Shown in pieces: positions 8,199-18,888 of a stretch of DNA of 24,205 bases. The DNA lies in the NCBI GenBank assembly GCA_042218325.1, contig JBDGRE010000022.1, forward strand, positions 1 through 24,205. Direction: 5' to 3'. Made by a program: the position numbers and the translations under genes. The notes beneath the pieces are model-generated. The model saw only the letters and a program-made list of their open reading frames with translations. It was not told the origin of the DNA and searched no databases. Positions within the stretch are counted from its first letter, which is position 1; every line of letters starts with the position of its first letter. Source of the DNA: Candidatus Nanohaloarchaea archaeon (GTDB lineage Archaea; Nanohalarchaeota; Nanosalinia; Nanosalinales; Nanosalinaceae).

Positions 8199-9323
8199 CT
8201 ATACTTCCGCGACCTCGTTCCTCGTCACAAGATGTACATCGGAGGAAGTCGCCCGGCCGGAGCGGTCCATACCCGCTATGTAGTCTGCATCGAGTTCCTC
8301 CGCCTTGCGGACACGTTCCTGGTCTATCTCGCCGTCGATAAGTATCGCGTGGCAGCCATCTTCGACATCGTCCAGCCGGTCAACAGGCACTTTCTGCGAT
8401 ATCTCAAGCTCGTCGTCGACCACGTGTACGGCGCGGGTGCCGACCAGCTCACCGAGAAGTTCGCGGATCTCCTCTACCCGTTCCTCATCGATTTCCAGCT
8501 CGGCGTCCCCTGCTTCAGCTCTTTCCGGGGACTTCTTGTCTCTCAGGGCCCTGAATATCTGCTTCTTTTCGAGATCCTCGACCTCCGTGTCCTCCGGGGC
8601 TCTCGCGACGTGGTCCACATCAGCCTTCTGCTTCAGTTCCTCGAGTATCAGGTCTCCTCCCCTGTCGCCGTCGAGGAAGGCAGTGACCTCTCTGCCGGAG
8701 GTCAGATTCGCTATCCTGGAGGGCACGTCCGTACCTCCTATAGCGACAGCGTTCTTGACCCCGTTCTTCAGGAGTTCGACGAGGTCGGCCCTGCCTTCAA
8801 CGAGGACTATCTCCTCCGAGTTACGGGCTTCAGGCCCGGCCTCGAAGCCCTCGAACTCCGATATCTCGGCCGCCCTGACCTCCTGCTTGACCTCTTCGTT
8901 TATCTTGCCGCGGCTCGGCGTATCGTCGTTCAAATCCTCGAGCAGCTGCTTGGCCCGTTTGACGATGTAGTCGCGCTTAGAGACTCTTTCATCCCTTATC
9001 TCGTTGACCTGTATGTCCGCGTTCGTCGGTCCCACGCGCTCTATGGTCTCAAGCGACGCTGCAATGAGCGATGTGTCGGCCGCGTCCAGCGAAGAAGGTA
9101 TGGTTATCGTCGCACTGGAGGAGCCGCCGGACTTGTCGACCTCGACCTGTATACGCCCGATGCGACCGCGCTCCTGGAGCTCGCGGAGGTCCAGGTCGTC
9201 GCCGAGGAGACCCTCCGTCTGGCCGAAGATAGCGCCGACGATATCCGGTTTCTCCACGAGCCCAGAGGATTCCAGTTCGGCCTCTATCACGTACTTCGCC
9301 GAACTCTGTGCGACCTTACTCAT
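8199..9323 (-). CDS. dnaG: Archaeal DnaG-type primase (TOPRIM; exosome-associated in characterised archaea)
   Basis: 'VEKPDIVGAIFGQTEGLLG', 'LDLRELQ', 'ASLETIERVGP', TOPRIM motifs 'VEGRAD' and 'FLDGDRGG'. Confidence 0.95.
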   Translation of the reverse strand: MSKVAQSSAKYVIEAELESSGLVEKPDIVGAIFGQTEGLLGDDLDLRELQERGRIGRIQVEVDKSGGSSSATITIPSSLDAADTSLIAASLETIERVGPTNADIQVNEIRDERVSKRDYIVKRAKQLLEDLNDDTPSRGKINEEVKQEVRAAEISEFEGFEAGPEARNSEEIVLVEGRADLVELLKNGVKNAVAIGGTDVPSRIANLTSGREVTAFLDGDRGGDLILEELKQKADVDHVARAPEDTEVEDLEKKQIFRALRDKKSPERAEAGDAELEIDEERVEEIRELLGELVGTRAVHVVDDELEISQKVPVDRLDDVEDGCHAILIDGEIDQERVRKAEELDADYIAGMDRSGRATSSDVHLVTRNEVAEV

Positions 9324-9564
9324 GTTTTTCAAGCCTCTCCATAATCTCATCCTCCGGCATATCTACTCGGATCTTCTTCCTGCGGGAGTGGTGACCGGAG
9401 ACGATACCTGGTTTTTCTCCGAGTATCTCCTCCAGCCGCCGGACCAGCTCCGCGTTGGCCCTGCCGTTCTCCGCCTCGTTCTCAAGGCGGAACGTCGGGA
9501 AATCCTTGAACTCTACCTCGAATCCTTCCTGTCCCGGCTCCACCCTGACGTAGATCTCTGTCAT
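9316..9564 (-). CDS. DUF167 (YggU/UPF0235) family protein
   Basis: 'YVRVEPG', 'AENGRANAELVRRL', 'IVSGHHSRRKKI'. Confidence 0.88.
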   Translation of the reverse strand: MTEIYVRVEPGQEGFEVEFKDFPTFRLENEAENGRANAELVRRLEEILGEKPGIVSGHHSRRKKIRVDMPEDEIMERLEKHE

Positions 9565-9570
9565 CTATCA

Positions 9571-9657
9571 TGATTTTGCTGCCCCGTAACATAGCCATTC
9601 ATCGCCTCTACCGTCTCCGGGAGGATTCTCGTGGCTACTGACCGCAGGACAGCACTA
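9571..9657 (-). ncRNA. Candidate single-hairpin H/ACA guide sRNA
   Basis: Lower stem UGCUGUCCU/GGGGCAGCA, pocket GCGGUCA/GUUAC, upper stem GUAGCCA/UGGCUAU, K-turn-like CGAGA/GAUGA, apical CCG-GAGA-CGG. ANA box (AAA) lies 14 nt from the top of the pocket. BRE/TATA-like AGAAACATAAG at 9690-9680. Confidence 0.7.
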
Positions 9658-9695
9658 TCCAAGAACAGGGGGTGCAAGTCTTATGTTTCTACCGG

Positions 9696-9876
9696 GAAAC
9701 TTCTGGAAGTTTCATCACCATAGCACGTTCAGCTGCGCTGAACGCACTTCAAGAGCAGATAAATCTAAACTTTGTGCCTTCCAGCAGGAAGGCTCCCTGT
9801 TGATGAAACTGACATCAGTTCGAAACCGAAGGGCGGTTTCTGTACTCCCGGAAACTCTTCGAGTTTCGAGAGTTTC
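9696..9876. repeat. Cluster of GAAAC...GTTTC palindromic hairpin units
   Basis: GAAACTTC-TG-GAAGTTTC (9696-9713), GAAACTGACATCAGTTC (9805-9821), GAAACCG-AAGGG-CGGTTTC (9822-9840), GAAACTC-TTC-GAGTTTC (9851-9867), plus an extra GAGAGTTTC (9868-9876). Confidence 0.7.
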
Positions 9877-10531
9877 ACTGGAAAAAGATGCCTTCTTCCG
9901 GAGCGGGCTTGAACTCGGCCTGCCGGGTCTTGGTCTGGATAGGTTCCTCGCCGTGGTACTTGCGGACGTACTGGTAGTACTCCCGCGCTTTCTCTATGGC
10001 GAACTCGCCGTCCCGCTCTATCATCTCCTCGCCGATGTAGTTGATGAAGGCCCACCGGAAGAACTTGTTAAGCGGTTTGGCTATGATCCGGGGCAGGAAG
10101 TCGACCCCGTTCGGCATGTCGTACTTTATCTTCGTCGATACGAGGTACTCCACCATCCCGAAGTCGTTCTCGCCCGAAGGAGCGGTCTTGGTCCATATGT
10201 CCGTTACGATCCTCAGTCTTCCGCGGCCGCTCGGCAGGTCCGTGTCGGCGTACATCGTGGACTTGAACGCATTGGTGTCGATGTTCTGCTGGTAGTACGT
10301 CTCCTCCGGCCGCGTCATCCCCATGTTCTGTTTCATGATGTACTTGTGGTCCTCGTATATCGATGGCAGGTTGGGGGATTCGTACCAGTCGGTCCGGTTC
10401 TGTATCTGTATCCATTCGCCGTTGAAAAGGTGGAAGTCACTCCAGATATTGTCCTCGTGGTTCTTCCCTGGACTCGGTGTCTCGAACCAGTACATCAACC
10501 TGTCCATGAAGGACTTCTCATCGTGGCTCAA
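9875..10531 (-). CDS. Hypothetical protein, paralog 3 of tandem triad
   Basis: TTG start 7 nt after GAGGTGA (10545-10539). Shares architecture with the two upstream ORFs. Confidence 0.8.
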   Translation of the reverse strand: MSHDEKSFMDRLMYWFETPSPGKNHEDNIWSDFHLFNGEWIQIQNRTDWYESPNLPSIYEDHKYIMKQNMGMTRPEETYYQQNIDTNAFKSTMYADTDLPSGRGRLRIVTDIWTKTAPSGENDFGMVEYLVSTKIKYDMPNGVDFLPRIIAKPLNKFFRWAFINYIGEEMIERDGEFAIEKAREYYQYVRKYHGEEPIQTKTRQAEFKPAPEEGIFFQ

Positions 10532-10561
10532 GCTCTGATCACCTCACGGCTTCTCATGTGT

Positions 10562-11197
10562 TCACTTCCAGGGAGGCCTGTAATGGGAGGCGCCTGTCCT
10601 CCCGACAGCCTCTTCGACCCCGAATTTTTCGCGGAACAGGTTCATCATCCTTAGCATGCTTTCCTCGGCCTCCTCCTTGTATCTTTCTATCTCTTTTGAA
10701 TAAAACTTGTTGTACCATATACCGACCAGTATCCTGTAAAGCTTGGATCTCTGGAACCTCGTGACGTCCTCGGGCTCCGCCATGAGGCCCGGCCTGTCAC
10801 CGCCTACACGCTCTGTAGGCCACTCCGACTGCGGTCTCGGCTCCCAGGATATCGGTTCCCCGCCAGGGTACATCGTGAAGACGAGAGGTGTGACCTTGAC
10901 GCGGGCCTTCATGATATCGTCCGGCCTGTCATGCTTGTAGACATCGCGGGGTGGTTTCGCCTTCATGGATATGCTGTAGTATATCACCGTGTGCGGGCTT
11001 TTCTCCTTGTAGGCGTGGAGCCTGACGCGGTCCTTCGGCTTGCTGACGTTGAACTCCATCCTGCCCTCCTCGACACGGTCCATATCGAACTCCTCGACCA
11101 GCATCTCCCTCAGGCCGCGGTACAGCCTTGCGGGGTCCTCGTGGACGAACATGTGGTCGGCCTTCGCGGGTATGTCCGATTCTGTGAACATCACCAT
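10562..11197 (-). CDS. Hypothetical protein, paralog 2 of tandem triad
   Basis: 211-aa ORF with host-like codon usage, translationally coupled to the upstream ORF (TGATG). Confidence 0.8.
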   Translation of the reverse strand: MVMFTESDIPAKADHMFVHEDPARLYRGLREMLVEEFDMDRVEEGRMEFNVSKPKDRVRLHAYKEKSPHTVIYYSISMKAKPPRDVYKHDRPDDIMKARVKVTPLVFTMYPGGEPISWEPRPQSEWPTERVGGDRPGLMAEPEDVTRFQRSKLYRILVGIWYNKFYSKEIERYKEEAEESMLRMMNLFREKFGVEEAVGRTGASHYRPPWK

Positions 11198-12273: not shown

Positions 12274-15200
12274 TCACGCAGTGAACTGTTTTATCCCGGT
12301 CTGCCGTTTATCCTTGCCGAACAGGCTCTGCAACGTATCCTTCAGGATGAGAATCTGCTGCCGCACGTACGGCGACACCTCGAAGTTCTCGATTATCTTC
12401 CTTGACGGCTCAAGATACTTCTTGATGGTGCCCTCGGAGATCGTCAGCAGGATCTTTCCGCCGCACTCCGGGCACTCCGCCGTCGTCTTCCCTGTCGGGG
12501 CGATGGTCTGCGCCGTCATCGGCACCCTCCGGTACTTGGTGTTGCAGTCGTTGCACCGCATCTCCTGCGAAGAGAAGCTGCGCAGGTTGCCCTTGATATC
12601 AGGTATGAAGTGCTTCTTCAGCAGGAGACCCGCGACATCGTCCTCGTCGACCGCCTTTATCCGCCTCCCGAGGCCCAGCTGCTGCTGGGTCTTCTCCGAC
12701 ATCTCGTCGAGCGTGACGTACTCGCTCTGGTTCGGCCCGTTCTCCACGCTCGAGGTTTCGTGGGTGTAGCCGTGCCGGAACGGCTCCTCGCTGTGGACGA
12801 TGTCCTCTCCTATCTCGATCTCCGTCTCCAGCTCCCAAGGATACCTGTAGTCGTATGTCTCCTCGTAGAAGCTGCGCGGGTACTCGTCCACGGTCTCGAT
12901 GGCCCAGGCCTCGTCATCCACCTCGTCCGGGTTCAGCACGGTCGAGAGGATGAGCGGCGCGTCCATCGTCCTGGCGCCGGTCATGTCCGGCAGGAACTGG
13001 CGGGAGAAGTTGAGAAGGCCGTCCATCAGCAGCAGTATCGCATCCTCGTCCCCATCGCAGTTCTGAGTTACTATATTGTCTTTAGTGACAAAATTATGCG
13101 TACCCTCCACCTCTATGTCGTACATGAATCGATCGTCAGATTTCTTAACTTCTATTTCCCTTATTTCCTCCTTTACCAGCTGGCCCTCTCTCTTCTCACG
13201 TGTCTGGCCTTCTATGCTGTAATCGTTTTCGAGCGTTTCCTGCTTTCTTTCCAAGGTGAAGCCTATCTCCTTTCCGAAGTTGACCGCGTGAGATGACCGG
13301 ATGTGCAGCTTGTTGGAGACAAAAGTTCTGCCTTGATAGTGCTCCTCACCGTACTTATCCACCAGTATACCTCCTGCTTCTCTCTCACTCTGGCTGTACC
13401 GAGCGTAGATCCCGAACCGCTTCAAAAGGAAATCGATATCGTCAAGCAGCTCTCTTGAAACACTGGTCGCCTGTACATGCAGTCGACCTTTCTCGACCGA
13501 TCCATCCCCTGCGAAGTAGGCTGAAAGCATCTCCGCAACTTTTTCCTCTGGAAGCCTCTTAACGAAGTCTGGAACCCTTTTTTCATGCGCCCCGGAACCT
13601 AATCCCAGCGATTCAAAGAGTTCGTAGACAAGTCGTGAGCTTATAACAAGAGTATGGTCCTGTTCACCTGGTTCTATGTCAAAGGTCTGGTGTATCGCGT
13701 CACGGATATCCTTCTTGAGTTCTTTTTCACCAAACGATAGGCAGACTTGGTAGAACTCTTTTCCTTCTTTTTCAGACTTCCGTGTGTAACCTTCTGCCAG
13801 GTAGAAGCCCAAGAGCCTCATGAAATCTGTATCTAACTCGATTTCTGTATCGAGTTCTACGGTATCCGCTTTGGCGGCTATCCCCGCTTCATCCGGTATT
13901 CCGTTATCCAGGGAACTTTTTTCCATAAGAGTTCTGTAGAGGTCAAGAGATATACTTCCTCTATACCGGTAGTTGCCTAGAGACTTTTTCGGAACCGACA
14001 GCTTGTTTGCAGCAGTCTTCAGGCCTCCCAGTTCGTCTATCGCCGAATCAACTTTTTCTTCAGCTCCTCGGACCATTATACGTCGGGAGCCTGAAAGCTG
14101 ATTAGCAAGATTCAGGGTATCCCTATCTTCCACTTCAACGTCTACCTCAAGAGGTGTGAATAGCTTATCTCCTTCTCCGAGTTCCCTTGCTCTTTTTACT
14201 CCTGAGGCGGTTTTCATCCTGTGATCAGGGAACACTTCGATTTTCCTGCCTGACCTGGTCTCAAATTCTATCTTATGGTCTTGGGCGGGGGTCTTAATCA
14301 CCTTGCTGGCTTTAGCAGTGGTGACTTCGGTCGTATCAACAGTTACAACTTGTCTATCAATCTCTTTCTCTATGGTTCCTGCCGAGTCAGCCTCCGCTTC
14401 GCCTTCAGCGCCATCAAAAAGCTCCCTTAGAGTGGAACAAGAGCCGTCAGCCATTTTTACTTCTGAATCACCGGGCATACAGTTCCGTCTTTTCCCGGCA
14501 TGCCAGTACGGGTGGGCGTAGATTCCCTTGGCGTCTGTGAAGCCTATGATGCGGCCGACCGTGCCCCCGGATGTGTGCGGCGCCAGGCCGATGACAAGCT
14601 CCCCGACGAGGTCCTCCTTCGATTCCACGTCGTAGTAAGGTTCAAGGCCGTAAAGCTTCTCCAGCGTCCCGTCCACGAATTTGGCGACATTGACGAGGTA
14701 GTCCGACGCCGGAAGTGTGTTCTCGGAGTCCGGTATGACTATGTCCTGCGGCTTCAGGGCGACGACCTGGTCGCTTCTCTCAAGAGGCTCTCCGTCGACG
14801 TCCTCCTCGTACCCCAGTTCTTGGAGCTTTTCCACCGGGACCGATATCTCTTCAGGCCGGAAATGAGTCATCGGGAGATCGGTGGCGTCGTATCTTACCG
14901 TGCCGTCCTTGTTGACATAAAGGCCGTATTTCTGCCTTATCAGGCCTTTCTCGATGGGTTCGACGTGCCGGTGCTCGCCTGACATGCCGCGCGGCGACTT
15001 CAGCAGCTCTGGGAGCCGCATGTCGACGTTCTCCATGGCCTCATCCAGCAGCTGCTTTACCTCGATATCGGTCTCGCGGTGCCTGTTGAAGTACTCGTTG
15101 CCGCAGCTCCCGCACTTTTCCTGTTCTTCGTCGAACTGCTTGCCGCAGTCGCTGCAGAACCAGACCTCTTCCGCTGGGACGTCACAGCTGACGCAGTAGG

Positions 15201-17151
15201 AGAAGTAGGTGAAATCTCCGCATTCAGGGCATCGGTTGTGGACTATGCTCTGCCTGACCGTCTCCTTTTTGTACGACTCGGCGAGGTTGCGCATCCTTCC
15301 GCCCTCTTCGCGGCCGCACGGGAACAGCAGCTGGGGCCGGCCTTCCAGCGTCCGCTTCTCGGCCTTCTCCGGCCTTCCCATCCGGGCGCCGATGTAGTGG
15401 GGAGCTTGAGGATTCAGCTTGTAGCCCGAGACCTCCTCAAGGTAATCAAGTATCTCGTCGCTGTCATCGATATCTGGCTCCCTCGCTCCTTCCAGCATCT
15501 CGAGCAGCACTTCCATGTCGGCCTCCTCCACCTTTATCTCACCGTCCTCGACCCGGTGCTCCAGCAGGATGTCCTCGAGGCACTTCTTCACCTGGTCGCC
15601 CTCGAGGCTCCCGGAGTTGACCGCCTCGTGCAGGGCCTCGAACCTGTCAGGAGTGGTCTCGTCCCAGTGGTACGTCCAGCACGGATGCAGCGGTATATCC
15701 AGCTTGTCCGATATCTTGAACGCCTCGCCGGGTGTGGGAGCGCGGTCGGAGAAGTCGCGGCCCAGCTTTACGTCTTTATCCTGGAGCGCAGCCTCGAGAT
15801 CTTTCTCCCACCACTCCTCAACGTAGGGCGACGGCAGAAGTCTCTTGCCGTTCTCCACGAACTCGCCGTACGTAACCAGTATGTCGCCGAGGAAAAGTAT
15901 CTCTTCGATGTCGTGCTCCTTCTCGCGGGCCTCCTCCCGTGTCTCCAGCTCCACGACGTCGCCGTTCTTCATCCGCACCACCGGGGGATGGAGGGCGTCG
16001 CATGGAGTCCCGACCGTTGCCTTTCCCGGGTGCTCGACCTTGAGCTGCGTGCCGATGGACAGGAAACGCTCCGTCACCTCCATCGTGGCAGGATGGAAAG
16101 AAGTGGCGGCGAGCCCGTTCGCCCGGGAGTGGCCGTATCTTAGCCGGAAACCGCCTTTCTCCCCGGGATGGCCCAATACAGGGCGGCCCGCGGTTATGGA
16201 GCCGAGGTACTTGTCGCCCGGGGTGTACTTCGTCTCCTCCTCTCCTTCCTCGTCGCCTCCCGATGAGTGGAGCTCTTCCTGGAGCTCAAGGTAGTCCTCT
16301 ACCCATTTCCAGTGCTCGAGCCCGAACTCCTCGCCCCAGGACTCTATGCGTTTCTTTATCTTCGGTGCCTTGAGTGGCAGGCCGTCGAGGTAGACGAGGC
16401 ACATACCGCCTCTTATCTGGTTCGTATCTATCCTTTCGAGGTCCTTGTAGTTGGAGACCTCTATCTGCTCCGTCGGGCTGCCCGTGACCTCCACAGGCAC
16501 GTTCTCCGCGATCATCTCGGTCTCCTCCCTCTCGGGGTAGTACTGCTTCGCCGTGACCCGGTTGTAGTAGTCGTCGACCTCCGTCGCGTACCTCTTGACT
16601 ATGGTCTCCGACGGCTTGAACCTGTCGAGCCCGACGTTCTTCCGCACATAGTCCGCGAGCAGAACGCTCATGGCAGAGGCGGTTCCTCCCGCGGAGCGGA
16701 TGGGTCCGGAGTAGTACATCGCCAGGTAGTCGGTTCCGTCGTCGTTCTCACGTATCTTCACGTCGCCGATACCCTCGAGCGGAGCGGTGGTGATGCCGCC
16801 CGTCATGTAGGAGGCACCGACACGGATGCCAGCGTCACACGCCCGCTCCAGCTCGTCGAACTCGTAAAAATCGCCCGAGGCGATCTCCCTCGCGATCTCG
16901 AACGATACACGCTCGTCGTTCTTGCCGTACTCTTCCTCGAGTTCACGTATCCGGGCCGCGACTCCCTGGTCCTCGAGCTCCGGGAACTTCGCCGCGATGA
17001 CGAGCGACGAGGCCTTCTCCGACAGGTCCTCCGCACGCGGGATATCGACACGGGCCTCGGGATCCTTCGACTGCTCTCGAGCCTCTTCGGCTATATCGTA
17101 CGCCTTATCGGTTTCCTCCCTCAGCCGCTCGAAGTAGTCCTCAGTTTCCAT
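12274..17151 (-). CDS. polC: DNA polymerase D large subunit DP2 (intein-containing; about 1151 aa after splicing)
   Basis: 'TAPLEGI', 'YYSGPIRSAGGTA', 'GGFRLRYG', 'IGARMGRPEKA', 'LAPHTSGG', catalytic 'CDGDED', 'MDAPL', Zn-finger clusters. RBS GAGGTGA at 17168-17162. Confidence 0.97.
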   Translation of the reverse strand: METEDYFERLREETDKAYDIAEEAREQSKDPEARVDIPRAEDLSEKASSLVIAAKFPELEDQGVAARIRELEEEYGKNDERVSFEIAREIASGDFYEFDELERACDAGIRVGASYMTGGITTAPLEGIGDVKIRENDDGTDYLAMYYSGPIRSAGGTASAMSVLLADYVRKNVGLDRFKPSETIVKRYATEVDDYYNRVTAKQYYPEREETEMIAENVPVEVTGSPTEQIEVSNYKDLERIDTNQIRGGMCLVYLDGLPLKAPKIKKRIESWGEEFGLEHWKWVEDYLELQEELHSSGGDEEGEEETKYTPGDKYLGSITAGRPVLGHPGEKGGFRLRYGHSRANGLAATSFHPATMEVTERFLSIGTQLKVEHPGKATVGTPCDALHPPVVRMKNGDVVELETREEAREKEHDIEEILFLGDILVTYGEFVENGKRLLPSPYVEEWWEKDLEAALQDKDVKLGRDFSDRAPTPGEAFKISDKLDIPLHPCWTYHWDETTPDRFEALHEAVNSGSLEGDQVKKCLEDILLEHRVEDGEIKVEEADMEVLLEMLEGAREPDIDDSDEILDYLEEVSGYKLNPQAPHYIGARMGRPEKAEKRTLEGRPQLLFPCGREEGGRMRNLAESYKKETVRQSIVHNRCPECGDFTYFSYCVSCDVPAEEVWFCSDCGKQFDEEQEKCGSCGNEYFNRHRETDIEVKQLLDEAMENVDMRLPELLKSPRGMSGEHRHVEPIEKGLIRQKYGLYVNKDGTVRYDATDLPMTHFRPEEISVPVEKLQELGYEEDVDGEPLERSDQVVALKPQDIVIPDSENTLPASDYLVNVAKFVDGTLEKLYGLEPYYDVESKEDLVGELVIGLAPHTSGGTVGRIIGFTDAKGIYAHPYWHAGKRRNCMPGDSEVKMADGSCSTLRELFDGAEGEAEADSAGTIEKEIDRQVVTVDTTEVTTAKASKVIKTPAQDHKIEFETRSGRKIEVFPDHRMKTASGVKRARELGEGDKLFTPLEVDVEVEDRDTLNLANQLSGSRRIMVRGAEEKVDSAIDELGGLKTAANKLSVPKKSLGNYRYRGSISLDLYRTLMEKSSLDNGIPDEAGIAAKADTVELDTEIELDTDFMRLLGFYLAEGYTRKSEKEGKEFYQVCLSFGEKELKKDIRDAIHQTFDIEPGEQDHTLVISSRLVYELFESLGLGSGAHEKRVPDFVKRLPEEKVAEMLSAYFAGDGSVEKGRLHVQATSVSRELLDDIDFLLKRFGIYARYSQSEREAGGILVDKYGEEHYQGRTFVSNKLHIRSSHAVNFGKEIGFTLERKQETLENDYSIEGQTREKREGQLVKEEIREIEVKKSDDRFMYDIEVEGTHNFVTKDNIVTQNCDGDEDAILLLMDGLLNFSRQFLPDMTGARTMDAPLILSTVLNPDEVDDEAWAIETVDEYPRSFYEETYDYRYPWELETEIEIGEDIVHSEEPFRHGYTHETSSVENGPNQSEYVTLDEMSEKTQQQLGLGRRIKAVDEDDVAGLLLKKHFIPDIKGNLRSFSSQEMRCNDCNTKYRRVPMTAQTIAPTGKTTAECPECGGKILLTISEGTIKKYLEPSRKIIENFEVSPYVRQQILILKDTLQSLFGKDKRQTGIKQFTA
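13060..14481 (-). mobile_element. Intein with LAGLIDADG homing endonuclease (474 aa) in DP2
   Basis: Inserted between HAGKRRN and CDGDED. Starts 'CMPGDSEV'; block B 'IEVFPDHRM'; LAGLIDADG blocks 'LLGFYLAEG' and 'MLSAYFAGDGS'; block F 'MYDIEVEGTHNFV'; ends 'VTQN' before Cys+1. Visibly more AT-rich than the exteins. Confidence 0.95.
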
Positions 17152-17238: not shown

Positions 17239-18888
17239 CTAGAATTTCTTCACCTCGGTGTTTCTTGTCTTGTAGTCTACGAATGTTACGAGGCCGGGCT
17301 GGGGCTCGTGGCCGACGCGTTTCTGGAAGTCGGTCTGCTGCTGGAACGTCGAGGCGCAGATGACGTTGACGCCTTTGTAGCTCTCGTTCGCGTGGCTGTG
17401 GAAGTGGCCGCTCGCGAGGATGTCCGGCTTCCTGACGATGACGAGGTGGTCCTCCTCCTCTGGCGACAGGAGGTTGGAGCCGTAGGTCGGCGCGAGATGC
17501 CGCCGCTTCAGCAGGTCTATCATGACGTGGTGCGGGTCGTCGTACGCCTTCTCCCGCAGCTCCTGTATCTGGTCGACGTGGTCGTCGAAGCTGTAGCCGT
17601 GGTAAATCAGGTTCATTATGCCCTTGCTCCTGATGCCGTGCAGGCGGACGTACTGCGGGTTCTGGACCAGATGGACGTTTTCCCACTGGCTCATGTTCGG
17701 CAGCGCCTTTTCAGGTAATGCGGGCTGGGGCTCGGCGAGCCTCACGACATCGTGGTTCCCCGGCCCGATTATGATTTCAAGGTCGTCGGGCAGCTTCTCC
17801 GCCCACTCCTCGAACCGAGCGTACTGCCTGTAGATATCCGTTATCTCGAGCTCTTCTTCCTGGCCAGGGTATGTCCCGACACCTTCGACGATGTCGCCCG
17901 GGATTACGAGGTAGCCGACCTTCTTCGCCTCGTCGCTGTTGAGCCAGCGGGCGAACTTGTCCATCCGGTCGTACATCGTATCCTTCGAGCCGACGTGGAA
18001 GTCGGATATGTACGCCGCTTTAACTTTCTCGCTGGTGGTGTTGACGCCGTCCGGTATCGGCAGGTCGGGCCGGACGACAGAGTTTGCGAATATTATGTCT
18101 TCTCCCATCGAACCACGGACGCCTATGACCTCGTCGGGAACTATGCGGTCCCCGTCTCTCTCATCGATCAGCGCCTTGAAGGTGCCGGTCTTGTCCTCCA
18201 GCTCGATGATGTACTTCCCGCTACGGGTGGAGTATTTGTCCTTCACCAGGCCGACGGTGGCGGCCTCCTCGCCCTCGTCACGGCGGTCCAGCCGCTGGAT
18301 GCTGACTGCGGACTTCATCTCCATCCGCTGCATCAGTATCTTCTTCATCCTGTCGTATCGGTCGTTGTAGTACTGCAGGAACTCCGGCACATCTTTATCC
18401 TCCTTCGAGATATCCGCCTGGTCGAGCACCTCGACCTTGGTCCGGAGGTCCCGGGAACCTGTGTCTCTCATAGTTGAGGCCGGCCGCTGGACGTCCTGGT
18501 CCACGTCGCCCGGGTTCGGATCCTGGGCGGGGCTTCCTTCACCCTCATCGACACCAGTGTCAGCGGCTGCATCTGTTTCCCCTGTCGCGTCCTCTTCTTC
18601 CGTGTCCCCGACGTTGCTGTCGTCTACGGCGGCCTCTATCTCACCGGGGACCTGTTCCCTGTCTTTCTTCACCATGAGTTTCTGGTCACCGCTCTCCACC
18701 TCTGTCATCTGCTCCTGCAGCTTCTCGTGGTCCTCCCGGAGCCGTGAAAGCATCGGCTCCGTGATGTACATCGGCGGAGAATCAAGGGCCTCTATACGCT
18801 CGAGGTCCTGCTCTGTTATCTTTTCTGCAGCATCTTTTTCTACGATGCAACCCTTCTGTGTTAGCTGTTTTACTGCTTTCTCGTTCAA
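17239..18888 (-). CDS. polB: DNA polymerase D small subunit DP1 (proofreading exonuclease)
   Basis: OB fold 'IIELEDKTG' and metallophosphoesterase motifs 'ISDFHVGS', 'GDIVEGVGTYPGQ', 'PGNHD', 'YHGYS', 'RRHLAPTYG', 'GHFH'. TTG start after GGGAGGGT. Confidence 0.95.
   Translation of the reverse strand: MNEKAVKQLTQKGCIVEKDAAEKITEQDLERIEALDSPPMYITEPMLSRLREDHEKLQEQMTEVESGDQKLMVKKDREQVPGEIEAAVDDSNVGDTEEEDATGETDAAADTGVDEGEGSPAQDPNPGDVDQDVQRPASTMRDTGSRDLRTKVEVLDQADISKEDKDVPEFLQYYNDRYDRMKKILMQRMEMKSAVSIQRLDRRDEGEEAATVGLVKDKYSTRSGKYIIELEDKTGTFKALIDERDGDRIVPDEVIGVRGSMGEDIIFANSVVRPDLPIPDGVNTTSEKVKAAYISDFHVGSKDTMYDRMDKFARWLNSDEAKKVGYLVIPGDIVEGVGTYPGQEEELEITDIYRQYARFEEWAEKLPDDLEIIIGPGNHDVVRLAEPQPALPEKALPNMSQWENVHLVQNPQYVRLHGIRSKGIMNLIYHGYSFDDHVDQIQELREKAYDDPHHVMIDLLKRRHLAPTYGSNLLSPEEEDHLVIVRKPDILASGHFHSHANESYKGVNVICASTFQQQTDFQKRVGHEPQPGLVTFVDYKTRNTEVKKF

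What the first reader, a model, noticed from the sequence alone, without database searches (positions are those of the whole stretch)
9571..9657. Unannotated H/ACA-like pseudouridylation guide predicted to target 23S rRNA helix 69 (U1915 equivalent)
Seen on the minus strand: 9-bp lower stem, bipartite pocket GCGGUCA (9645-9639) and GUUAC (9590-9586), 7-bp upper stem, imperfect K-turn-like motif, GNRA-capped apex, AAA box exactly 14 nt after the pocket top, and a promoter-like element about 26 nt upstream. G-U pairs favour this strand. The pocket predicts the target GUAAC-U-N-UGACC(GY). Known (from memory): haloarchaeal H69 reads GUAACUAUGACC, and the unpaired U corresponds to E. coli 1915. Inference: an RNA-guided pseudouridylation system is retained in a reduced DPANN genome, possibly co-transcribed with DUF167 and dnaG.
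Basis: partly seen in the sequence, partly recalled or inferred. Interest (0 to 1): 0.8.

Follow-up and report, generated by a model that had tools for sequence, protein, structure and literature searches.

The report
H/ACA guide RNA for ribosomal helix 69
This is a real, unannotated small guide RNA of a tiny salt-loving archaeon that most likely tells the enzyme Cbf5 to turn one conserved uridine in helix 69 of the large ribosomal RNA into pseudouridine; it is a known kind of RNA found in a new lineage.

Summary

- **Conservation.** A covariance model built from it finds one copy in 57 of 70 genomes of the phylum. Relatives carry Candidatus Nanosalina and Nanohaloarchaea titles.
- **Structure.** 14 of 15 base pairs show compensatory changes (0 of 500 shuffles reach this).
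- **H/ACA features.** The two pocket strands, the tandem G:A kink-turn and an ANA box 14 nt from the upper stem are the most conserved parts.
- **Target.** The pocket pairs 5+7 with a single site in the same-genus 23S rRNA, GUAAC-UA-UGACCGU in the helix 69 loop. It follows a base change in that helix seen only in nanohaloarchaeal records.
- **Partners.** Cbf5, Nop10 and L7Ae are encoded. Gar1 was not detected in any of the 70 genomes.
- **Context.** The gene lies 9 nt upstream of DUF167-dnaG with no T-run between them, so co-transcription is plausible here.

Untested: the window's own 23S is not assembled, and neither expression nor the pseudouridine itself could be checked.

It is a new member of a known kind; the functional counterpart is stem-loop 2 of Haloferax sR-h45. 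This scan had earlier noted other H/ACA guides in Asgard genomes, but not this family.

The parts
9574..9654 (-). Whole box H/ACA guide hairpin, from the lower stem through the ANA box
   Evidence: MFE fold. Covariance model R1 scores 92.3 bits here, and it is the only hit in the genome.
9678..9689 (-). A-rich promoter-like box (GAAACAUAAGAC), about 25 nt upstream of the hairpin
   Evidence: Read. Relatives carry AAGAAAAAGCUU, UUUAAAG or UAUAAAU type boxes at a similar distance. Promoter function is inferred.
9646..9654 (-). Lower stem P1, 5' strand (UGCUGUCCU)
   Evidence: Pairs with 9577-9585. All 8 modelled pairs show compensatory changes, for example GCUGCCC/GGGCAGC to GCCCGCC/GGCGGGC.
9639..9645 (-). 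5' guide strand of the pocket (GCGGUCA), pairing with UGACCGU of helix 69
   Evidence: GGUCA is nearly invariant in 57 homologues. It forms 7 bp with the same-genus 23S.
9632..9638 (-). Upper stem P2, 5' strand (GUAGCCA)
   Evidence: Pairs with 9591-9597. Of the 7 modelled pairs, 6 show compensatory changes and the closing G.U varies on one side only.
9629..9631 (-). Kink-turn, non-bulged strand (C-G-A)
   Evidence: N-G-A directly after P2 in 53 of 57 homologues. Both GA dinucleotides are in place in 52 of 57.
9605..9624 (-). Apical stem with GAGA tetraloop (9617-9614); variable in relatives and absent in a K-loop form
   Evidence: Fold. Variable length in alignments A1 and A2.
9598..9603 (-). 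Kink-turn, bulged strand (GAU bulge, G-A, A)
   Evidence: U-G-A-N directly before P2 in 54 of 57 homologues.
9591..9597 (-). Upper stem P2, 3' strand (UGGCUAU)
9586..9590 (-). 3' guide strand of the pocket (GUUAC), pairing with GUAAC of helix 69
   Evidence: GUUAC in 54 of 57 homologues. It forms 5 bp with the target.
9577..9585 (-). Lower stem P1, 3' strand (GGGGCAGCA)
9574..9576 (-). ANA box (AAA), 14 nt 3' of the upper stem
   Evidence: ANA at this column in 50 of 57 homologues: 35 AAA, 8 AUA, 5 ACA, 2 AGA.
9316..9564 (-). DUF167 (YggU family) gene; its start codon lies 9 nt after the ANA box
   Evidence: Pfam PF02594, 37.8 bits against a cut-off of 30.9. A DUF167 homologue starts within 100 nt of the guide in 42 of 57 loci.
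8199..9350 (-). Archaeal DnaG (Toprim) gene, overlapping the end of DUF167
   Evidence: Pfam Toprim_4 and Toprim_2. It follows DUF167 in most related loci.

Best explanation
A single-hairpin archaeal box H/ACA guide sRNA.

**Shown by sequence and comparison.** A lower stem, a two-stranded pocket, an upper stem carrying a kink-turn, and an ANA box at the canonical distance.

**Inferred mechanism.**
- L7Ae binds the kink-turn.
- Cbf5-Nop10 bind the lower stem and the ANA box.
- The 3' pocket strand GUUAC pairs with GUAAC, and the 5' strand GCGGUCA pairs with UGACCGU, in the loop of 23S helix 69.
- This leaves U-A unpaired at the base of the upper stem, and Cbf5 isomerises that U.

The target U is the first U of the UAUG that holds Haloferax volcanii psi1940 and psi1942. 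The equivalence to E. coli U1915 is recalled, not tested.

**Inferred transcription.** The RNA starts at its own promoter-like box. In this genome there is no T-run before the DUF167 start codon 9 nt downstream. The guide is therefore probably made as the 5' leader of the DUF167-dnaG transcript and trimmed from it.
For: **Fold and strand.** The minus strand folds at -35.0 kcal/mol against -27.9 for the plus strand. G.U pairs fix the strand; for example the closing G.U of the upper stem is present in 51 of 56 distinct sequences.

**Conservation.** There is one hit per genome in 57 of 70 genomes of the phylum, and in 25 of 28 high-quality genomes. One more copy, in G019, was seen by eye. The own genome holds a single copy.

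**Covariation.**
- 94.7% of cells are paired, against 25-54% when partners are slid.
- 14 of 15 pairs have changes on both sides, in 125 cells.
- 0 of 500 shuffles reach any of the measures.

**Conserved single strands.**
- 3' pocket GUUAC in 54 of 57.
- ANA at a fixed column in 50 of 57.
- Both G-A dinucleotides in place in 52 of 57.

**Geometry.**
- 14 nt lie between the upper stem and ANA. The published rule is 14-15 nt (PMC2377435, passages), or n+15 +/-1 (PMC7075261, passages).
- The distal G:A pair is the 10th position from the base of P2. The published rule is 9-10 (PMC7075261).

**Target.**
- There is a unique 5+7 bp site in the same-genus 23S, at U1964 of that rRNA in the helix 69 loop. 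It is also the only site at a threshold of 4+4 or better. Only 22 of 5000 shuffled pockets find any 5+7 site.
- 48 of 57 homologues keep at least 5+5 bp with the phylum's helix 69.
- The guide's CGG matches CCG of helix 69. That reading occurred in 2 of 121 matches of a pattern left open at those positions, and both are nanohaloarchaeal records. The other 119 read CCC.

**Proteins.** Cbf5, Nop10 and L7Ae are encoded. Cbf5 is present in 25 of 25 relatives.

**Precedent.** An H/ACA stem-loop guides this very site in Haloferax volcanii (PMC7075261, abstract and passages).
Against: - No expression data: no RNA run was listed.
- No pseudouridine mapping exists for any member of the phylum, as far as my searches reach.
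- The window's own 23S is not assembled, so the target is read from relatives.
- Gar1, the fourth core protein, was not detected.
- The upper stem is 7 bp if the closing G.U is counted. In Pyrococcus abyssi, functional motifs had 5 or 6 bp and predicted 7-bp ones were inactive (PMC2377435). If the G.U is open, the stem is 6 bp and the ANA distance is 15 nt; both values are canonical.
- The kink-turn of this particular copy is imperfect, with an extra AAU on the non-bulged strand.
- 9 of 57 homologues pair less than 5+5 with the consensus target. One example is G002, with 4+4 against its own 23S.
- 7 of 57 lack ANA at the fixed column.
- No Rfam family matches.
Confidence: 0.88

Rival explanations
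1. A cis-acting leader of the DUF167-dnaG mRNA: a kink-turn hairpin bound by L7Ae or another protein that controls translation or stability, with no guide function.
For: The hairpin ends 9 nt before the DUF167 start codon with no T-run between them. A DUF167 homologue follows within 100 nt in 42 of 57 loci.
Against: - The most conserved letters are the two unpaired pocket strands, and together they are complementary to one rRNA site. A translation operator has no need for that.
- 28 of 57 homologues have a T-run of 4 or more within 27 nt after ANA, which would end the transcript before DUF167.
- In 5 loci DUF167 starts more than 100 nt downstream, at 142-429 nt. In 8 loci none was found by tblastn.
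- The ANA box sits at the n+15 distance.
- The hairpin does not cover the start codon.
Confidence: 0.05
2. A genuine H/ACA guide whose real or additional substrate is another RNA (16S rRNA, a tRNA, or the neighbouring U two positions downstream), rather than the helix 69 U predicted here.
For: [quoted passage not shown] Haloferax stem-loop 2 makes both psi1940 and psi1942 from one pocket (PMC7075261). I scanned only a 23S rRNA, not 16S or tRNAs.
Against: - The 23S scan gives a single site even at the relaxed 4+4 threshold.
- The pocket tracks the lineage-specific helix 69 sequence.
- The second U is paired with the guide's A9639. The Haloferax double modification needs it unpaired, in the UNUN form (PMC7075261).
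Confidence: 0.04
3. A chance hairpin in an intergenic spacer, with accidental complementarity to rRNA.
For: Single-sequence fold statistics alone are modest: z -3.3, with 2 of 200 shuffles as good.
Against: Single-copy conservation in 57 of 70 genomes and compensatory changes in 14 of 15 pairs. Only 22 of 5000 shuffled pockets find a comparable site.
Confidence: 0.01

Closest known systems
Haloferax volcanii sR-h45, 3' stem-loop SL2 (box H/ACA guide for 23S psi1940 and psi1942 in helix 69; PMC7075261)
   Same: Same class of RNA: P1 stem, pocket, P2 stem with tandem G:A kink-turn, and ANA at n+15. Same target helix. The predicted target U is the first U of the UAUG that SL2 modifies; haloarchaeal helix 69 reads GUAACUAUGACCCU. 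Both organisms live at high salt.
   Different: - sR-h45 is a double stem-loop RNA of about 200 nt with a 56-nt linker. Here there is one hairpin, and no second H/ACA hairpin was found in the 217 nt upstream.
- SL2 leaves UNUN unpaired and makes two pseudouridines. Here only UN is unpaired, so one is predicted.
- The covariance model found nothing at E<=1 in 5 haloarchaeal genomes; the one match listed has E 1.9 at 16 bits. Homology is therefore not shown.
- Those 5 haloarchaea lack DUF167 and have Gar1.
Single-motif box H/ACA sRNAs of Thermococcales (Pab91, Pab21, Pab160, Pab19; PMC2377435)
   Same: [quoted passage not shown]
   Different: Different sequences and different target sites. The Pyrococcus upper stems are 5-6 bp, against 7 bp here if the closing G.U is counted. 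AAA is the commonest box here, whereas the paper says ACA is the most frequent.
Eukaryotic snR191 (yeast) and U19 (human), the H/ACA snoRNAs for the two helix 69 pseudouridines (named in PMC7075261)
   Same: RNA-guided pseudouridylation of the same conserved helix 69 positions.
   Different: These are two-hairpin snoRNAs with H and ACA boxes, using one hairpin per site. They have no L7Ae-type kink-turn requirement (recalled). No sequence relationship was tested.

Membership tests
Archaeal box H/ACA guide sRNA | Hairpin with lower stem (at least 7 bp) and upper stem (at least 5 bp) flanking an internal loop of 5-11 nt per strand (descriptor of PMC2377435) | tested here: met
   9-bp lower stem, 7-nt and 5-nt pocket strands, 7-bp upper stem. 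Stems are supported by covariation in 14 of 15 pairs.
Archaeal box H/ACA guide sRNA | [quoted passage not shown] | tested here: met
   GA at 9630-9629 faces GA at 9600-9599 behind a 3-nt GAU bulge, and the distal pair is the 10th position. Both GA dinucleotides are in place in 52 of 57 homologues, and one homologue has a K-loop form. The sheared geometry itself is inferred from sequence. By the Pyrococcus count (5-6 bp), the 7-bp stem is one pair long unless the closing G.U is open.
Archaeal box H/ACA guide sRNA | ANA trinucleotide 14-15 nt 3' of the upper stem (n+15 rule) | tested here: met
   AAA at 9576-9574, 14 nt after U9591. ANA at the same column in 50 of 57 homologues.
Archaeal box H/ACA guide sRNA | Bipartite complementarity of the pocket to a stable RNA, leaving U-N unpaired | tested here: met
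   5+7 bp with GUAAC-UA-UGACCGU of the same-genus 23S, the only such site. 22 of 5000 shuffled pockets do as well. The own 23S is not assembled.
Archaeal box H/ACA guide sRNA | Core proteins Cbf5, Nop10, L7Ae and Gar1 encoded in the genome | tested here: inconclusive
   Cbf5 340.7 bits, Nop10 46.8 bits and L7Ae 96.2 bits are all over their cut-offs. Gar1 was not found with PF04410 (0 of 70 over the cut-off) or with a haloarchaeal Gar1 profile (0 of 70 at E<=0.01). The same Pfam model hits 5 of 5 haloarchaea at E<=0.001, 3 of them over its cut-off.
Archaeal box H/ACA guide sRNA | Expressed as a stable small RNA, bound by L7Ae and Cbf5, with pseudouridine present at the predicted site | not testable with these tools
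   No RNA run was listed. No modification data are available.
Any curated Rfam H/ACA family | Match to the family covariance model at its gathering score | tested here: not met
   0 matches at gathering score in the window. At E<=10 over 9300-9950 there were 5 unrelated matches, none overlapping 9571-9657.
Haloarchaeal sR-h45 family | Double stem-loop RNA (SL1 for psi2605, long linker, SL2 for psi1940/1942) with sequence or structure homology | tested here: not met
   This is a single hairpin. No second H/ACA hairpin appeared in the descriptor scan of the genome or in the upstream 217 nt. Model R1 found nothing at E<=1 in 5 haloarchaeal genomes, but only 150 of about 600-800 first-look candidates per genome were scored. 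I could not locate sR-h45 itself for a direct alignment.

The most novel reading that the evidence does not exclude
Nanohaloarchaeota run a stripped-down RNA-guided pseudouridylation system. It has one guide hairpin and one rRNA target (the helix 69 U). It uses Cbf5-Nop10-L7Ae with no Gar1 at all. The guide is produced from the 5' leader of the DUF167-dnaG transcript, so DUF167 (function unknown) would be functionally tied to helix 69 or H/ACA RNP biology.
Probability: 0.12. Interest if true: 0.6.

Novelty: new member of a known kind. Interest (0 to 1): 0.4.

Why it matters
- **Annotation.** It adds a non-coding RNA gene that is not in Rfam to the annotation of a whole phylum of ultra-small symbiotic archaea.
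- **Biology.** Genomes of about 1 Mb still pay for RNA-guided modification of helix 69, the bridge between ribosomal subunits.
- **Guide-target co-variation.** It gives a clean natural example: the guide follows a base swap in the helix 69 stem that is specific to this lineage.
- **Open questions.** The side observations make testable questions for the few cultivated nanohaloarchaeon-host pairs. These are that no Gar1 was detected in 70 genomes and that the guide is fused to the front of DUF167-dnaG.

I found no paper in the searched library that mentions H/ACA RNAs, Cbf5 or Gar1 together with Nanohaloarchaeota or DPANN.

Tried and rejected
- **Rfam.** No family at gathering score. Only unrelated weak matches at E<=10.
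- **RNA evidence.** No RNA holder was listed for window 8200-10600.
- **Homology to Haloferax sR-h45.**
  - Model R1 found nothing at E<=1 in 5 haloarchaeal genomes; the one match listed has E 1.9 at 16 bits.
  - A motif pattern (UGA, GUUAC, ACA) gave about as many hits as its reversed control in three of those genomes and more in the other two.
  - I read one hit, G072:C6:150464. It has no matching lower stem and looks like coding sequence.
  - I therefore never saw the sR-h45 sequence itself; its figure and supplementary oligonucleotide table are not readable here.
- **Second guide in the genome.** My own strict descriptor scan returned 9 rows at 7 loci.
  - Two rows are this locus.
  - C13:18251-18322 (two rows) looked best, but it lies inside a 193-aa ORF, has no rRNA target within 2 mismatches, and is not conserved even in the same genus.
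  - The hit at window 15137-15214 (+) lies inside a 1625-aa ORF.
  - The other four were not followed up.
  - The descriptor demands perfect stems and UGA, so it is not exhaustive.
- **Second hairpin upstream (sR-h45-like architecture).** 9658-9874 is strongly structured, but it shows no pocket, K-turn and ANA arrangement and does not align with close relatives.
- **DUF167 as a Cbf5 partner.** Complex prediction on alignments of both proteins gave no verdict (score 0.00). This counts neither for nor against binding.
- **DUF167 linkage outside the phylum.** The 5 haloarchaea searched have no DUF167. Other archaea were not examined.
- **Earlier notes of this scan.** There were none for this genome. 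The word search returned H/ACA guides and a K-turn leader in Asgard genomes only.

Full report
**1. Observation**

- Lower stem: UGCUGUCCU (9654-9646) pairs with GGGGCAGCA (9585-9577). That is 9 bp, two of them U.G.
- Pocket strands: GCGGUCA (9645-9639) and GUUAC (9590-9586).
- Upper stem: GUAGCCA (9638-9632) pairs with UGGCUAU (9597-9591). That is 7 bp, the first being G.U.
- Kink-turn: C-GA (9631-9629) faces GAU-GA-A (9603-9598).
- Apical stem: closed by a GAGA tetraloop (9617-9614).
- ANA box: AAA at 9576-9574, 14 nt after the upper stem.

RNAfold gives exactly this structure as the minimum free energy fold: -35.0 kcal/mol, z -3.3. The opposite strand folds less well, at -27.9 kcal/mol.

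No ORF covers the element on its own strand. It lies between an unassigned 218-aa ORF (9875-10531) and a DUF167 ORF (9316-9564), which is followed by dnaG (8199-9350).

**2. Is it more than chance?**

A blastn search with 101 nt found similar stretches in six relatives. Their alignment showed conserved pocket strands and changing stems.

A covariance model built from the seven sequences (the window's copy and those six) gave these results:
- A match at E<=0.01 in 57 of 70 genomes of the order. These 70 genomes are also all that is held for the phylum.
- 25 of 28 high-quality genomes have it.
- There is one match per genome, except for one genome with two.
- The weakest match (G041, 20.6 bits) is doubtful, and I dropped it from later counts.
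- One genome scored as negative (G019) does carry the element upstream of DUF167, as seen by eye.
- The own genome has a single copy, even at E<=10.

Covariation was counted on the 58 aligned matches, 56 of them distinct:
- 94.7% of cells form standard pairs.
- 14 of 15 pairs have changes on both sides, in 125 cells.
- None of 500 column shuffles reaches any of the five measures.
- Sliding the partners by 1-3 columns drops pairing to 25-54%.
- The lower stem switches as a block between GCUGCCC/GGGCAGC and GCCCGCC/GGCGGGC.

The alignment was fitted to the model's structure, which favours it somewhat. Even so, the block changes are unambiguous.

**3. What it is**

The conserved unpaired letters are those an H/ACA guide needs, counted on 57 homologues:
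- GUUAC in 54 of 57, and GGUCA nearly throughout.
- ANA at a fixed column in 50 of 57: 35 AAA, 8 AUA, 5 ACA, 2 AGA.
- N-GA directly after the upper stem together with UGA-N directly before its 3' strand in 52 of 57.
- One relative replaces the apical stem with a K-loop.

The geometry fits the published rules:
- ANA lies 14 nt from the upper stem. The rules are 14-15 nt in Pyrococcus abyssi (PMC2377435, abstract and passages) and n+15 +/-1 (PMC7075261, passages).
- The distal G:A pair is the 10th position from the base of the upper stem. The rule is 9-10 (PMC7075261).

One tension remains. P. abyssi motifs worked with upper stems of 5-6 bp, and predicted 7-bp ones did not. Here the stem is 7 bp if the closing G.U is counted and 6 bp if it is open. 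In the latter case the ANA distance becomes 15 nt, which is still canonical.

**4. Target**

The own assembly (35 contigs, 96% complete) has no 23S rRNA and no helix 69 fragment. I therefore read the target from relatives.
- Eight 23S loci were fetched. Seven read GUAAC-UA-UGACCGU, among them the closed same-genus genome. One reads GACUGU at the 3' end.
- The window's pocket pairs 5+7 with this site, the last pair being G.U. This leaves U-A unpaired.
- In the same-genus 23S it is the only site with 5+7 pairing, and also the only one with at least 4+4.
- Only 22 of 5000 shuffled pockets find any 5+7 site.
- Of the 57 homologues, 48 keep at least 5+5 pairs with the consensus target. Nine keep fewer, for example G002 with 4+4 against its own 23S.

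Of these, 119 read CCCU. They come from haloarchaea, methanogens, Thermoplasmata and other archaea, plus one record titled Clostridiales. Two read CCGU, and both come from nanohaloarchaeal records. The guide's CGG therefore follows a lineage-specific swap in the helix 69 stem.

The target U is the first U of UAUG. In Haloferax volcanii the two U's of this tetranucleotide are psi1940 and psi1942, made by stem-loop 2 of sR-h45 (PMC7075261). My assignment of which U is which rests on the paper's 'UNUN' description and on the haloarchaeal sequence. The E. coli number 1915 is recalled.

**5. Partners**

- Cbf5: a 320-aa ORF, 340.7 bits on TIGR00425 over the whole model.
- Nop10: 46.8 bits.
- L7Ae: 96.2 bits.
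- Cbf5 is present in 25 of 25 relatives searched.
- Gar1 was not found in the own genome.
- Gar1 was found in none of 70 genomes over the Pfam cut-off; the two weak hits have E of 0.012 and 0.19.
- With a profile built from four haloarchaeal Gar1 sequences, 0 of 70 genomes match at E<=0.01.
- The Pfam model hits 5 of 5 haloarchaea at E<=0.001, 3 of them over its cut-off.

This may be a true loss or divergence beyond recognition. I could not decide between the two.

**6. Context and transcription**

- A DUF167 homologue begins within 100 nt of the guide in 42 of 57 loci, and 142-429 nt downstream in 5.
- None was found by tblastn in 8 loci. Two of those 8 have dnaG starting 72-91 nt downstream of the guide and a third at 272 nt.
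- Two loci have too little downstream sequence.
- Upstream, most loci carry an A/T-rich box of the archaeal TATA type some 22-30 nt before the hairpin, or before an extra small 5' hairpin.
- Downstream, 28 of 57 have a run of at least four T within 27 nt of ANA. That looks like an archaeal terminator and argues for a separate small RNA in those genomes.
- The window and its nearest relatives have no such run. Here the DUF167 ATG is 9 nt after AAA.

In this genome the guide is therefore probably the 5' leader of the DUF167-dnaG transcript. That is an inference.

In genus g14 the syntenic spacer is about 35 nt and holds no hairpin, and the model finds none elsewhere in those genomes.

**7. Taxon**

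Genomes of the group are 0.5-1.7 Mb. Two named records, a Candidatus Nanosalina genome and a Candidatus Nanohaloarchaea MAG, give model hits with the same coordinates and scores as handles G002 and G065. Both handles are 'same family' as the window.

**8. Comparison with the known**

The RNA works like, and meets the computable criteria of, an archaeal box H/ACA guide.
- It matches no Rfam family.
- Its closest functional counterpart is sR-h45 SL2, but the architecture differs. This is one hairpin rather than two. UN is unpaired rather than UNUN, so a single pseudouridine is predicted.
- My model finds nothing at E<=1 in five haloarchaea; the one match listed has E 1.9. The prefilter scored only part of the candidates there, so homology is not excluded.
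- I could not retrieve sR-h45 itself.
- Searches of the paper library found nothing that links H/ACA RNAs, Cbf5 or Gar1 with Nanohaloarchaeota or DPANN. Supplementary files, which I could not open, might hold such annotations.

**9. Verdict**

This is a new member of a known kind.

Interest is moderate. The prediction itself is what a specialist would expect wherever Cbf5, Nop10 and L7Ae are present. Three side observations are worth a bench test in the cultivated nanohaloarchaeon-host systems:
- the phylum-wide failure to detect Gar1;
- the guide-as-operon-leader arrangement;
- the guide-target co-variation.

Noticed in passing
Whole genome G000 and the 69 other genomes of the phylum: Gar1 is not detectable. 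PF04410 gives 0 of 70 over its cut-off, and a haloarchaeal Gar1 profile gives 0 of 70 at E<=0.01. The Pfam model hits 5 of 5 haloarchaea at E<=0.001, and Cbf5 is present in 25 of 25 relatives. This is either loss of a core H/ACA protein or extreme divergence.
   Followed up: partly
window 9658-9874 (-): The spacer between the upstream ORF and the guide's promoter-like box is packed with near-perfect hairpins: MFE -81 kcal/mol, z -5.0, 0 of 200 shuffles as good. It does not align with the closest relatives. One hairpin (GUGCGUUCAGC...GCUGAACGUGC) has a positional counterpart in G005. Its function is unknown; it may be a terminator of the upstream gene or a mobile hairpin repeat.
   Followed up: partly
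L005-L012, L140, L179 (23S helix 69): Nanohaloarchaeal helix 69 reads GGCG...CCGU where the other archaeal matches read GGGG...CCCU. This is a compensatory base-pair swap in the helix 69 stem. It was seen in 2 of 121 pattern matches, both nanohaloarchaeal, and in 7 of 8 relatives' 23S loci.
   Followed up: partly
L289, L290, L291 (genus g14: G014, G037, G017): In this genus the upstream gene is followed after about 35 nt (with a UUUUAAU box) directly by DUF167. The guide hairpin is missing at the syntenic place, and the model does not find it elsewhere. Cbf5 is still present in G014 and G017.
   Followed up: partly
L088-L091 (G053, G027, G052): These homologues carry a 16-18 nt 5' pocket strand, against 6-8 nt in most others and 10 in L081. 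G053 has two copies on different contigs.
   Followed up: no
window 18463-18534 (+): ARAGORN reports a tRNA of undetermined identity with a two-letter anticodon 'cc' at position 33. It may be an intron-containing or otherwise unusual tRNA.
   Followed up: no
window 9875-10531 (-) and 10562-11197 (-): Two ORFs of 218 and 211 aa have no Pfam family at E<=0.01. The C-terminus of the first (..GIFFQ) recurs just upstream of the guide in many relatives, so it is a conserved neighbour of unknown function.
   Followed up: no
G000:C13:18251-18322 (+): An H/ACA-like hairpin with an 8-bp lower stem, GA/UGA motifs and AAA/ACA was picked up by my descriptor. It lies inside a 193-aa ORF, has no rRNA target within 2 mismatches and is not conserved. 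It is most likely a false positive.
   Followed up: yes
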